From Escherichia coli (GTDB lineage Bacteria; Pseudomonadota; Gammaproteobacteria; Enterobacterales; Enterobacteriaceae), in assembly GCF_029227855.1 (NCBI RefSeq), contig NZ_CP074356.1: a DNA stretch of 64,000 nucleotides; one strand, 5' to 3'. This document shows, in pieces, positions 1 to 3,000 of the stretch (positions are counted from its first letter, which is position 1; each line of letters opens with the position of its first letter). The position numbers were made by a program.

Positions 1-3000
1 TCCTTGATGGCGACTTCAGCCGCAAAAATACAGGCGGTTGCACTATTGAGTTGCTCTGCCGTTAAACGCCCTTCAATACCGTTAGCGCCTTGTTTTTCAA
101 CGTAGACATTCACGCCGAGTTTGCGTCCGGCTTTTTCCAGATATTCCGCAGCCATATAGGTGTGAGCAATACCCGCCGGGCAGGCCGTTACGCAGACGAT
201 AGTTGGCGCGTTGGAAAAAGAAGCTGAGGGTTGCGTGCCTCCCTTGTCATCCAGCGCCGAAAGCAATTCATCAGGCGTCGTCGCCGACTGTATACGCGCC
301 CGTATCTCATCATCCGCCAGGCGCGTGGTCAGCGCTGTCAGCAGTTGCATGTGCGTAGTACCCGCTTCATTGGGGGGAATCGCCAGCAACACCACTAAAT
401 CAACCGCTTCCGGGCCATCCACGCCTTCCCACTGAAGCGGCTCACTCAGTGTCGCAACGGCAAACGCTGCTTCTTTTACCGCAGCAGTTTTACCATGCGG
501 CACAGCCAACCCTTCACCTAAGGCGGTCGGGCCAAGGCTTTCACGGCGATACACTTCTTCCAGAAATTGCTCAGTACTGGAAATTTTCCCCAGAGCAGCA
601 AGACGTTGAGTCAACGCGTGGATGGCCTCTTCACGGCTGGTAAAGCGCGCATTCAGACACAACGCATCGCGGTGGGTCAGAGTCGTCAGGTTCATCATGA
701 TCCTCACTTGATCGTTTTTATAGTCGCGCCAGTGTGCCCGATAAAACAATACTATTATGTGATCAATTTCACTTGATTGAAATTATTTGTATTGTATTTG
801 TATTATTTACAGGATGAATTTATCGTGCATAATGGCTAAATTCGTATTAATGAGATGCTAAATAATGGGACGGAAACCCTTATATCGACAGATTGCCGAT
901 CGCATTCGTGAGCAAATTGCGCGTGGCGAGCTAAAACCTGGCGATGCGTTACCTACCGAATCGGCATTGCAAACAAAGTTTGGCGTCAGCCGGGTTACGG
1001 TGCGTCAGGCTTTGCGCCAGCTAGTCGAGCAACAGATCCTCGAAAGCATTCAGGGCAGCGGGACTTACGTCAAAGAAGAGCGGGTCAATTACGATATTTT
1101 TCAGTTAACCAGTTTTGATGAAAAACTGTCGGACCGTCACGTCGATACACACAGTGAAGTTCTGATATTTGAAGTGATTCCGGCTGACGATTTTCTTCAG
1201 CAACAGCTACAAATCATCGCGCAGGATCGTGTGTGGCATGTGAAGCGCGTGCGCTATCGCAAGCAAAAGCCAATGGCGCTGGAAGAAACCTGGATGCCGC
1301 TTGCGTTGTTCCCGGATCTCACCTGGCAGGTTATGGAAAATTCGAAATATCACTTTATTGAAGAAGTGAAGAAAATGGTTATCGATCGTAGCGAACAGGA
1401 AATCATTCCTCTGATGCCAACCGAAGAGATGAGCCGTCTGCTTAATATCAGCCAGACTAAGCCGATTCTTGAAAAAGTATCGCGTGGATATTTAGTTGAT
1501 GGCCGGGTGTTTGAATATAGCCGCAACGCTTTTAATACTGATGACTATAAATTTACCCTGATAGCGCAGCGAAAATCATCGCGATAAGCATAAAAAAGGC
1601 CATCATACGATGGCCAACCATGTCGAAACCGACAACCCTTCGCCATTCCTGTAGAGGGAAGCGGCGAGGGCTATTTCTTATTACAGATATTTATTTCAGA
1701 ACAGTTTTCAGTGCTTCACCGATATCCGCCAGGCTGCGAACGGTTTTCACGCCTGCGGCTTCCAGAGCAGCGAATTTCTCATCCGCAGTCCCTTTCCCAC
1801 CGGCAATGATGGCACCCGCGTGGCCCATACGTTTGCCTTTCGGCGCAGTTACACCAGCGATGTAACCTACAACTGGCTTGGTAACGTGCTCTTTGATGTA
1901 CGCAGCCGCTTCTTCTTCAGCACTACCGCCGATCTCACCGATCATCACGATCGCTTCGGTCTGCGGATCTTTTTCGAACATTTCGAGGATGTCGATAAAG
2001 TTAGAGCCAGGGATCGGGTCGCCGCCGATACCAACACAGGTCGACTGACCGAAACCGTAATCCGTGGTCTGTTTAACTGCTTCATAGGTCAGTGTACCGG
2101 AACGGGAAACGATACCCACTTTACCCGGTTTGTGAATGTGACCAGGCTGGATACCGATTTTGCATTCACCCGGAGTGATAACGCCTGGGCAGTTCGGGCC
2201 GATCATGCGAACGCCCGCTTCATCCAGTTTCACCTTCACGGTCAGCATATCCAGCGTCGGGATGCCTTCAGTGATGGTGATAATCAGTTTGATGCCTGCA
2301 TCAATAGCTTCCAGAATGGAGTCTTTGCAGAACGGTGCTGGTACGTAGATAACAGAAGCGGTAGCGCCAGTAGCAGCAACAGCTTCACGCACGGTGTTGA
2401 ACACCGGCAGGCCGAGGTGGGTGGTGCCGCCTTTACCTGGGGTTACGCCGCCAACCATTTTAGTGCCGTATGCAATGGCTTGTTCAGAGTGGAAAGTCCC
2501 CTGGCTACCGGTAAAGCCCTGGCAGATAACCTTGGTGTTTTTATCAATTAAAATGGACATTATTTCCCCTCCACTGCGGCAACAACCTGCTGAGCTGCAT
2601 CCGTCAGACCTTTTGCTGCAATAATATTCAGGCCGCTGTCAGCCAGTTTCTTCGCGCCGAGTTCGGCGTTGTTACCTTCCAGACGTACCACGACCGGTAC
2701 GTTAACACCCACTTCCGCTACCGCGCCGATGATACCGTCAGCGATCAGGTCGCAACGAACGATACCGCCGAAGATGTTAACCAGAACGGCTTTCACTTTG
2801 TCGTCAGATAGGATGATTTTGAACGCTTCGGTTACACGTTCTTTGGTTGCGCCGCCGCCAACGTCCAGGAAGTTAGCTGGTTCGCCGCCGTGCAGTTTAA
2901 CGATGTCCATCGTACCCATCGCCAGACCTGCGCCGTTAACCATACAACCGATGTTACCGTCCAGCGCAACGTAGTTCAGTTCCCACTGTGCAGCCTGTGC

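What the first reader, a model, noticed from the sequence alone, without database searches (positions are those of the whole stretch)
760..800. Perfect inverted repeat plus TGTATT triplet in the mngA / mngR divergent region
AATTTCA-cttgat-TGAAATT (765-784) is a perfect 7-bp inverted repeat, immediately followed by three tandem TGTATT units (788-807). It lies between the divergent mngA and mngR starts, where the GntR-type repressor MngR is expected to bind. The site assignment is inference from symmetry and position.
Basis: inference. Interest (0 to 1): 0.2.

Follow-up and report, generated by a model that had tools for sequence, protein, structure and literature searches.

The report
Known MngR operator beside chance palindrome
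The TGTATT repeats are the already published binding site of the E. coli MngR (FarR) repressor, while the neighbouring 7-bp palindrome is a chance, E. coli-only feature whose left half sits in a conserved CRP-like box, so the finding is ordinary.

Summary
The window is E. coli, and 690-865 is the divergent mngA/mngR control region.

**What is there**
- The inverted repeat AATTTCA (765-771) / TGAAATT (778-784) is exact.
- TGTATT occurs at 788, 793 and 799. The first two copies overlap by one base, so this is not a clean 6-nt tandem array.
- The true repeat is TATTTGTATT x2, 11 bp apart.

**TGTATT block**
- It coincides with the published FarR/MngR primary operator: a 21-bp site with two TGTATTAWTT direct repeats (Quail 1994, read only through two citing papers).
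- It is non-random (0.2-0.8% of shuffles).
- The two 11-bp-spaced copies are 97% conserved in 38 orthologous loci from other genera. The middle copy is not conserved.

**Inverted repeat**
- It fits chance: 23% of shuffles of the spacer contain one.
- Its loop and right arm lie in the least conserved stretch.
- It is absent from 548 E. coli genomes whose variant keeps both 11-bp-spaced repeats.
- It lacks the GT..AC core of GntR/HutC operators.
- Its left arm lies inside a conserved TGTGATCAnTTTCAC box. I read this box (inference) as a class II CRP site for an extended -10 mngA promoter.

**Other candidate MngR boxes**
- 843-852, just after the conserved mngR promoter.
- 748-753, on the minus strand, inside the predicted mngA promoter.

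**Verdict:** already known; low interest.

The parts
788..808 (+). Primary MngR (FarR) operator: two direct repeats 11 bp apart, O1 TGTATTGTAT (788-797) and O2 TGTATTATTT (799-808). The conserved core is ATTTGTATT at 785-793 and 796-804.
   Evidence: O2 matches the published TGTATTAWTT exactly and O1 matches 8/10 (literature). The cores are 97% conserved in 38 orthologs. The double repeat is unique in the 64 kb. These are the top two PWM hits in the window.
793..798 (+). Middle TGTATT copy. It is an accident of the GT at 794-795 and not a conserved unit.
   Evidence: Positions 794-795 match the window in 22% of orthologs, and the majority base pair is TA. They are AA in the ST131-type E. coli variant. 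The middle copy scores only 5.2 bits with the MngR PWM, against 16.7 and 15.5 for O1 and O2.
843..852 (+). Candidate secondary MngR box O3, CGTATTAATG, at about +4 to +13 of the conserved mngR promoter.
   Evidence: It matches TGTATTAWTT at 8/10. It scores 9.7 bits with a PWM built from O1/O2, the third best hit in the whole 64-kb window. [C/G]GTATTA has an 80% majority frequency in orthologs. D1 pairs 796-819 with 840-863.
748..753 (-). Candidate MngR box O_A in inverted orientation: AATACT on the plus strand, AGTATT on the mngA strand. Most orthologs have TGTATT or GGTATT here. It lies at -24 to -29 of the predicted mngA promoter.
   Evidence: AATAC is 97% conserved and sits at a fixed offset from the CRP-like box in 32 of 37 orthologs. 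It scores 5.7 bits in the window. Function is inferred.
758..773 (.). CRP-like box TGTGA-TCAATT-TCACT, centred at 765.5.
   Evidence: It matches TGTGA-N6-TCAC exactly. There are 2 such matches in 64 kb, and the other lies in the nagE-nagB spacer. It is 90-97% conserved across genera. It scores 11.5 bits, rank 7 of 63979, with a CRP PWM built from 16 classical sites that I recalled from memory.
765..784 (.). There is no evidence that it works as a unit.
   Evidence: It is exact (I5). It is at chance level, 23% of shuffles. The right arm and loop are not conserved. It is absent from 548 E. coli genomes. As RNA it folds weakly: -3.7 and -4.0 kcal/mol, z -0.2 and -1.0.
806..833 (+). Conserved mngR promoter: -35 TTTACA (806-811), 16-nt spacer, -10 CATAAT (828-833). 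The predicted transcription start is near 840. O2 overlaps the -35 by 3 nt.
   Evidence: The promoter scan gives 10/12. TTTAC is about 89% and GCATAAT 92% conserved. The start site is inferred.
777..806 (+). E. coli-specific second promoter-like site: TTGAAA (777-782, inside the right arm of the inverted repeat), 18-nt spacer, TATTAT (801-806).
   Evidence: The promoter scan gives 10/12. Shimada et al. 2014 proposed the same hexamers for mngR (PMC3946193). The TTGAAA stretch is not conserved outside E. coli.
731..736 (-). Predicted mngA -10 hexamer: CACACT on the minus strand, CACAAT in most orthologs, usually preceded by TGn (extended -10). It places the transcription start near 724 and the CRP-like box at -41.5.
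   Evidence: At this fixed offset, 37 of 37 orthologs carry nAnnnT across 14 different hexamers. By my own count of the listed contexts, 29 of 37 have TG at -15/-14. The start site was not measured.
1..695 (-). 5' part of mngA (PTS EIIABC for 2-O-alpha-mannosyl-D-glycerate). The start is the second ATG of ATGATG.
   Evidence: RefSeq annotation of the identical strain 7/2. All 38 orthologs align from residue 1 of MNLTTL.
865..1587 (+). mngR (farR), a GntR/HutC-type repressor.
   Evidence: Annotation. Pfam GntR wHTH 1.9e-24 and UTRA 6.6e-37.

Best explanation
This is the control region of the divergent E. coli mngR and mngAB genes.

The TGTATT block (788-808) is the known primary operator of the HutC-type repressor MngR (FarR). 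It consists of two ATTTGTATT direct repeats one helical turn (11 bp) apart. MngR bound there covers the -35 hexamer (TTTACA, 806-811) of the conserved mngR promoter. In E. coli it also covers the -10 of a second promoter-like site. This gives autorepression. A third box at 843-852, just downstream of the predicted mngR start, probably reinforces it.

The 7-bp inverted repeat is not a functional unit. Its left arm is the spacer and right half-site of a conserved TGTGATCAnTTTCAC box. I infer that this box is a CRP site centred at -41.5 of an extended -10 mngA promoter (start near 724). Its right arm is unconstrained spacer that happens in most E. coli to read TTGAAA. A conserved inverted GTATT box at 748-753, inside that mngA promoter, is the likely place where MngR blocks mngA.

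Basis of each step:
- Shown: sequence, conservation, statistics.
- Published: MngR binding to the TGTATTAWTT repeats.
- Inferred: CRP binding, both transcription starts, and the roles of boxes O3 and O_A.

The confidence given (0.8) is for the core claim: the repeats are the known MngR operator and the palindrome is incidental. I put the CRP / class II promoter part at about 0.6.
For: - Identity of the locus: 100% to E. coli 7/2 with mngA/mngR annotated. K-12 is identical from 754 to 825.
- Published operator: a 21-bp primary site with two 10-bp direct repeats TGTATTA(A/T)TT. Window 788-808 is 21 bp and 799-808 matches exactly.
- The repeat cluster is non-random and unique in the window.
- Phylogenetic footprint over 38 orthologous mngA/mngR spacers from Citrobacter to Edwardsiella: both ATTTGTATT cores 97%, AATAC 97%, TGTGA 97%, TCACT 90%, GCATAAT 92%. 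By contrast the repeat's loop is 43%, its right arm 32% and GT 794-795 22% identical to the window.
- Within E. coli, 3275 genomes carry the version with the inverted repeat. 548 genomes (including EC958) carry CTTACAAGATACT instead, with TGTATTAAATTTGTATTATTT retained.
- The inverted repeat is expected by chance in 23% of shuffles and gives no stable hairpin.
- CRP reading: exact TGTGA-N6-TCAC. PWM 11.5 bits, rank 7 of 63979. Higher-ranked hits include the sdhC-gltA and nagE-nagB spacers, which I recall as CRP-controlled.
- Class II geometry: nAnnnT sits at exactly -12..-7 in 37 of 37 orthologs, mostly TGnCACAAT.
- O3 is the third-best MngR PWM hit in 64 kb.
Against: - I could not read Quail 1994 or Sampaio 2004. 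The exact footprint limits are therefore unknown, and the footprint might extend over 778-784.
- The published consensus fits O1 at only 8/10.
- No mng entry appears in the CRP genomic SELEX paper or its supplements. No paper in the library links CRP to mngA.
- The E. coli -10 (CACACT, no TG) is weak.
- No transcription start data could be retrieved.
- The CRP PWM rests on sites I recalled from memory.
- O_A scores only 5.7 bits in E. coli.
- Shimada 2014 proposed different hexamers for mngA (TTAATA-19-GATAAA).
Confidence: 0.8

Rival explanations
1. One reading: the inverted repeat is a palindromic half of the MngR operator. It would be bound by the two wHTH domains of an MngR dimer, with the TGTATT repeats as an adjacent extension.
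For: GntR-family dimers usually bind palindromes. The repeat is exact and directly adjoins the repeats. It is kept in 3275 E. coli genomes. I could not see the original footprint limits.
Against: The published motif is direct repeats, listed explicitly as an exception to palindromic HutC sites. The repeat lacks a GT..AC core. Its right arm and loop are unconserved in 38 orthologs that keep MngR at 63-85% identity. It is lost in 548 E. coli genomes whose variant, in the one strain I inspected (98889), has mngR and mngA annotated full length. It is at chance level.
Confidence: 0.06
2. The conserved TGTGATCAnTTTCAC box, with AATAC beside it, is not a CRP site. It would instead be the second FarR/MngR site or the site of another regulator, and mngA would be transcribed from a different, CRP-independent promoter.
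For: My recollection that Quail 1994 reported two FarR sites in this spacer; the text I could read mentions only a 'primary site'. AATAC is an inverted GTATT. The box's spacer TCAnTTT is more conserved than CRP alone would need. CRP SELEX did not list mng. Shimada 2014 proposed another mngA promoter.
Against: The box matches both CRP half-sites with the correct 6-bp gap. Its score is comparable to the CRP-like hits in the nagE-nagB spacer of the same window. It sits at a fixed distance giving -41.5 to a conserved extended -10 pattern. It contains no GTATT. O3 is a better candidate for the second MngR site.
Confidence: 0.25
3. The inverted repeat is a recent E. coli-specific regulatory gain. 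Its right arm supplies a -35 (TTGAAA) for an extra mngR promoter, or the palindrome binds an unidentified dimeric factor or nucleoid protein.
For: TTGAAA-18-TATTAT scores 10/12 and was proposed as the mngR promoter from RNAP holoenzyme SELEX, with H-NS flagged in this spacer. The version with the repeat predominates in E. coli.
Against: A -35 role needs only one arm and does not explain the symmetry. I recognised no known factor motif in it, though this was checked only from memory. It is absent in ST131-type strains. It is at chance level.
Confidence: 0.1

Closest known systems
FarR/MngR operator of E. coli K-12 (Quail, Dempsey and Guest 1994; Sampaio et al. 2004)
   Same: It is the same locus, and the sequence is identical to K-12 across 754-825. 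The 21-bp block 788-808 holds two TGTATTAWTT-type direct repeats, as published.
   Different: Nothing differs for the repeats. The inverted repeat is not part of the published motif. The 'triplet' is a by-product of one variable dinucleotide.
Canonical HutC-subfamily palindromic operators (NyGTMTAKACNy, e.g. NagR/DasR dre sites)
   Same: The regulator has the same GntR wHTH plus UTRA architecture. The half-site GTAT resembles GTMTA.
   Different: MngR sites are direct repeats with 11-bp spacing, not palindromes. The inverted repeat AATTTCA-N6-TGAAATT has no GT/AC core.
NanR (GGTATA)x3 and NagQ (TGGTATT) direct-repeat operators of GntR-family regulators
   Same: These are short GTAT-containing hexamers or heptamers repeated in tandem and recognised by GntR-family proteins. 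Superficially this resembles three TGTATT copies.
   Different: Here only two copies, 11 bp apart, are conserved. The middle copy is dispensable.
Class II CRP-dependent promoters with an extended -10 (e.g. galP1; from my knowledge of Busby and Ebright's classification)
   Same: A TGTGA-N6-TCAC box is centred 29.5 bp upstream of a TGn-nAnnnT element, that is at -41.5, and there is no good -35.
   Different: CRP binding and the start site are not demonstrated for mngA. E. coli itself lacks the TG.

Membership tests
FarR/MngR operator (TGTATTAWTT direct repeats) | Match to the 10-bp consensus TGTATTA(A/T)TT | tested here: met
   799-808 TGTATTATTT is exact. 788-797 and 843-852 each match 8/10.
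FarR/MngR operator (TGTATTAWTT direct repeats) | Two copies as imperfect direct repeats within a 21-bp primary site | tested here: met
   788-808 is 10+1+10 bp. TATTTGTATT repeats at 11-bp spacing. The pattern is unique in 64 kb.
FarR/MngR operator (TGTATTAWTT direct repeats) | Location in the mngR(farR)-mngA(hrsA) spacer next to the regulator gene | tested here: met
   Annotation of identical and K-12 genomes. MngR has GntR and UTRA domains.
FarR/MngR operator (TGTATTAWTT direct repeats) | Conservation with the regulator across species | tested here: met
   Both ATTTGTATT cores are 97% conserved in 38 orthologous spacers.
FarR/MngR operator (TGTATTAWTT direct repeats) | Physical binding by MngR (footprint or EMSA) | not testable with these tools
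   Known only through secondary citations of Quail 1994. The original papers are not held.
Inverted repeat as a GntR/HutC palindromic operator | GT...AC core of the NyGTMTAKACNy consensus | tested here: not met
   AATTTCACTTGATTGAAATT contains no GT-N4-AC arrangement (consensus).
Inverted repeat as a GntR/HutC palindromic operator | Both arms conserved where the regulator is conserved | tested here: not met
   The right arm is 32% and the loop 43% identical to the window. The repeat is destroyed in 548 E. coli genomes.
Inverted repeat as a GntR/HutC palindromic operator | Symmetry beyond chance | tested here: not met
   22.7% of shuffles of the spacer contain an equivalent inverted repeat.
CRP binding site | TGTGA-N6-TCACA core | tested here: met
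   TGTGATCAATTTCACT at 758-773 matches 9/10 of the core. It scores 11.5 bits, rank 7 of 63979, with a PWM built from recalled sites.
CRP binding site | Conservation in orthologous promoters | tested here: met
   Half-sites are 97% and 90% conserved. Ortholog PWM scores range from 8.3 to 15.5 bits.
CRP binding site | Position at -41.5, -61.5 or similar relative to a mapped start | tested here: inconclusive
   The geometry fits -41.5 to a conserved extended -10 pattern. No start-site data could be retrieved.
CRP binding site | CRP-cAMP binding or CRP-dependent expression | not testable with these tools
   mng is not listed in the CRP SELEX paper or its supplements. No paper in the library links CRP to mngA.

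The most novel reading that the evidence does not exclude
mngAB may be driven by a previously undescribed class II CRP-dependent, extended -10 promoter (start near window 724). Its CRP box would be bracketed by MngR boxes: O_A inside the core promoter, and O1/O2 about 40-50 bp away on the other side. MngR would then repress both divergent promoters from a four-box array, possibly by bridging over or competing with CRP. A corollary is that the K-12 reference start of mngA, 20 codons upstream, lies inside this promoter and is a mis-annotation.
Probability: 0.4. Interest if true: 0.3.

Novelty: already known. Interest (0 to 1): 0.1.

Why it matters
It matters little beyond annotation. The operator has been known since 1994, so the finding adds nothing new about MngR.

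The useful by-products are:
- A cleaner map of the region, separating real elements (two 11-bp-spaced repeats, two extra GTATT boxes, a CRP-like box, two conserved promoters) from accidental ones (the palindrome and the middle TGTATT).
- A testable prediction that this PTS operon is under catabolite control through a class II CRP site.
- An indication that the K-12 mngA start codon is annotated 20 codons too far upstream.

Tried and rejected
**Literature that led nowhere**
- The primary papers (Sampaio 2004, Quail 1994) are not held.
- Searches for CRP-mngA links or for descriptions of the mngR-mngA spacer found nothing relevant.
- The CRP genomic SELEX paper and its supplements have no mng entry.

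**Transcription start data**
- The Cappable-seq GTF is truncated before this locus.
- The Kim 2012 supplements have no entry for it.

**Ideas tested and rejected**
- RNA hairpin from the inverted repeat: rejected, at -3.7 and -4.0 kcal/mol with z -0.2 and -1.0.
- Rfam scan of 1-2500 at E <= 1: no match.
- Other TGTATTAWTT sites in the window that might hint at a wider regulon: one-mismatch matches occur at the chance rate, 6 observed against 6.7 expected.
- Inspection from memory only, with no tool: the palindrome does not fit FNR (TTGAT-N4-ATCAA; here the order is inverted with N6), Cra, the ArgR box or IHF consensus patterns.
- A triple hexamer operator like NanR's: rejected because the middle copy is not conserved.

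Full report
**Locus.** The window is Escherichia coli. Positions 600-1000 are 100% identical to strain 7/2, where RefSeq annotates mngA on the minus strand and mngR on the plus strand. K-12 MG1655 is identical from 754 to 825, so it carries the same inverted repeat and repeats. mngR (865-1587) encodes a GntR wHTH plus UTRA protein, which places it in the HutC subfamily. Downstream on the minus strand are ORFs of the size and order expected for sucD, sucC, sucB and sucA. K-12 annotates sucD next to mngR.

**Observation.** The inverted repeat AATTTCA (765-771) / TGAAATT (778-784) is exact. TGTATT occurs three times, at 788, 793 and 799. The first two copies share a base, so this is not a clean hexamer array and it ends at 804. 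Both repeat finders see an 11-nt period, TATTTGTATT x2. A perfect 7-bp inverted repeat with a spacer of 12 nt or less appears in 22.7% of dinucleotide shuffles of this AT-rich 166-nt spacer. The hexamer cluster appears in 0.17% of shuffles and an exact 10-mer direct repeat in 0.8%. The repeats therefore exceed chance and the palindrome does not.

**What is published.** I could not open the primary papers. Two papers cite Quail et al. 1994 in the same terms. FarR, now called MngR, has an experimentally determined primary site in a 21-bp region with two imperfect 10-bp direct repeats, TGTATTA(A/T)TT. It is listed as an exception to the palindromic HutC consensus NyGTMTAKACNy. Window 788-808 is exactly 21 bp, TGTATTGTAT-T-TGTATTATTT. 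The second copy matches the consensus exactly and is the only exact match in 64 kb.

**Comparative test.** One scan with MngR recovered 38 loci from Citrobacter, Enterobacter, Kluyvera, Buttiauxella, Atlantibacter, Serratia, Edwardsiella and others, at 63-85% protein identity. All have mngA divergently upstream, aligned from residue 1 of MNLTTL. Aligning the 39 spacers gives a sharp footprint.

Conserved elements:

| Element | Window position | Conservation |
|---|---|---|
| AATAC | 748-752 | 97% |
| TGTGA | 758-762 | 97% |
| TCACT | 769-773 | 90% |
| ATTTGTATT (O1 core) | 785-793 | 97% |
| ATTTGTATT (O2 core) | 796-804 | 97% |
| ATTTAC (includes the -35 TTTACA, 806-811) | 805-810 | 89% |
| GCATAAT | 827-833 | 92% |
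| [C/G]GTATTA | 843-849 | 80% |

Unconserved elements (identity to the window):

| Element | Window position | Identity to window |
|---|---|---|
| Loop of the inverted repeat | 772-777 | 43% |
| Right arm of the inverted repeat | 778-784 | 32% |
| GT that creates the middle TGTATT | 794-795 | 22% |

The same holds within E. coli. 3275 complete genomes carry the version with the inverted repeat. 548 genomes, including EC958, carry CACTTACAAGATACTATTTGTATTAAATTTGTATTATTT. This destroys the palindrome and the middle TGTATT but keeps both 11-bp-spaced repeats. In strain 98889, the one such genome I inspected, mngR and mngA are annotated full length. As RNA the palindrome folds weakly and no better than shuffles.

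**What the left arm of the palindrome belongs to.** Positions 758-773 read TGTGA-TCAATT-TCACT, a 9/10 match to the CRP core with the correct 6-bp gap. I built a CRP matrix from 16 classical sites recalled from memory, which is a caveat. With it the site scores 11.5 bits, rank 7 of 63979 positions. The better hits include the sdhC-gltA spacer and two sites in the nagE-nagB spacer. I recall both spacers as CRP-controlled, so they serve as informal positive controls. Orthologs score 8.3-15.5 bits.

If the box centre (765.5) is taken as -41.5 on the mngA strand, the -10 hexamer falls at 736-731. At that exact offset, all 37 orthologs that could be anchored carry nAnnnT across 14 different hexamers, most often CACAAT. 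By my own count of the listed contexts, 29 of 37 have TG at -15/-14. This is the geometry of a class II CRP promoter with an extended -10. It predicts an mngA start near 724.

This remains inference for four reasons. No start-site data could be retrieved. The CRP SELEX paper does not list mng. E. coli's own hexamer (GGGCACACT) is weak. Shimada et al. 2014 proposed other hexamers for mngA.

**Further MngR boxes.** I built a matrix from O1 and O2. With it, 839-851 (AATTCGTATTAAT) is the third-best hit in the entire window. It lies just downstream of the conserved mngR promoter TTTACA-16-CATAAT (806-833), so it is a plausible secondary operator. The conserved AATAC at 748-752 reads [T/G/A]GTATT on the mngA strand and lies at -24 to -29 of the predicted mngA promoter. 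It scores 5.7 bits in E. coli and sits at a fixed offset in 32 of 37 orthologs. It is the most economical explanation of how MngR blocks mngA, but it is untested.

**The right arm of the palindrome.** It contains TTGAAA (777-782). Together with TATTAT (801-806) this forms a 10/12 promoter-like site. Shimada et al. 2014 proposed the same pair for mngR from RNA polymerase SELEX, and they also flagged H-NS in this spacer. This element is specific to E. coli and needs only one arm.

**Model.**
- MngR binds the two helically phased direct repeats and covers the mngR -35. In E. coli it also covers the -10 of the second promoter-like site.
- O3 would add a block at the mngR start, and O_A would block mngA.
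- CRP-cAMP would activate mngA from -41.5 once MngR is released.
- The palindrome is a coincidence between the CRP half-site region and free spacer.

**Verdict.** The feature is already known, so interest is low.

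Noticed in passing
window 753-755 (K-12 NC_000913.3 765984, L001): K-12 annotates mngA as starting 20 codons upstream (MVLFYRAHW...), at an ATG that exists only because K-12 has C where this window has T at 753. The window reads ATA there, PGAP calls the downstream ATG in other strains, and all 38 orthologs align from MNLTTL. The K-12 start lies inside the predicted promoter and is probably a mis-annotation.
   Followed up: partly
L007 (E. coli 1217KP) versus window ~738-893: This strain has a roughly 155-bp deletion that removes the whole mngA-mngR regulatory spacer and the first codons of mngR. mngR is annotated there at 696 nt, 37 nt from mngA.
   Followed up: no
window 600-1000 versus 5426 complete E. 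coli genomes: Only 3867 of 5426 genomes carry this region, so mngR/mngA is absent from about 29%. Among carriers the 401 bp is unusually polymorphic: identity runs from 91 to 100%, and only 100 genomes are at 99% or above.
   Followed up: partly
window 54998-55053 and 11574-11595: Strong CRP-like sites lie in the nagE-nagB spacer (TTTTGTGAGTTTTGTCACCAAA and a neighbour) and in the sdhC-gltA spacer (AACAGTGATCCAGGTCACGATA). I recall both regions as CRP-controlled, and they served as informal positive controls for my matrix.
   Followed up: partly
window 835-841 and 857-863: GCTAAAT occurs twice, 22 nt apart, between the mngR -10 and its start codon. GCTAA is half of the SlyA palindrome TTAGCAAGCTAA as I recall it, and slyA overexpression raised mngAB 3.4-fold (PMC5797941).
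   Followed up: no
window 761-764: A GATC (Dam) site sits inside the CRP-like box, within the palindrome TGATCA. It is invariant in all 39 aligned spacers.
   Followed up: no
window ~1588-1690, minus strand: K-12 annotates the sRNA SdhX at the 3' end of sucD, directly next to the mngR stop codon. An Rfam scan of window 1-2500 at E <= 1 returned no match there.
   Followed up: no
window 704-712 and 769-777: TCACTTGAT occurs twice, once over the mngA ribosome-binding region and once over the CRP half-site and the loop of the inverted repeat (D2). Only the CCTCAC and TCAC parts are conserved in other genera, so this is probably chance.
   Followed up: partly
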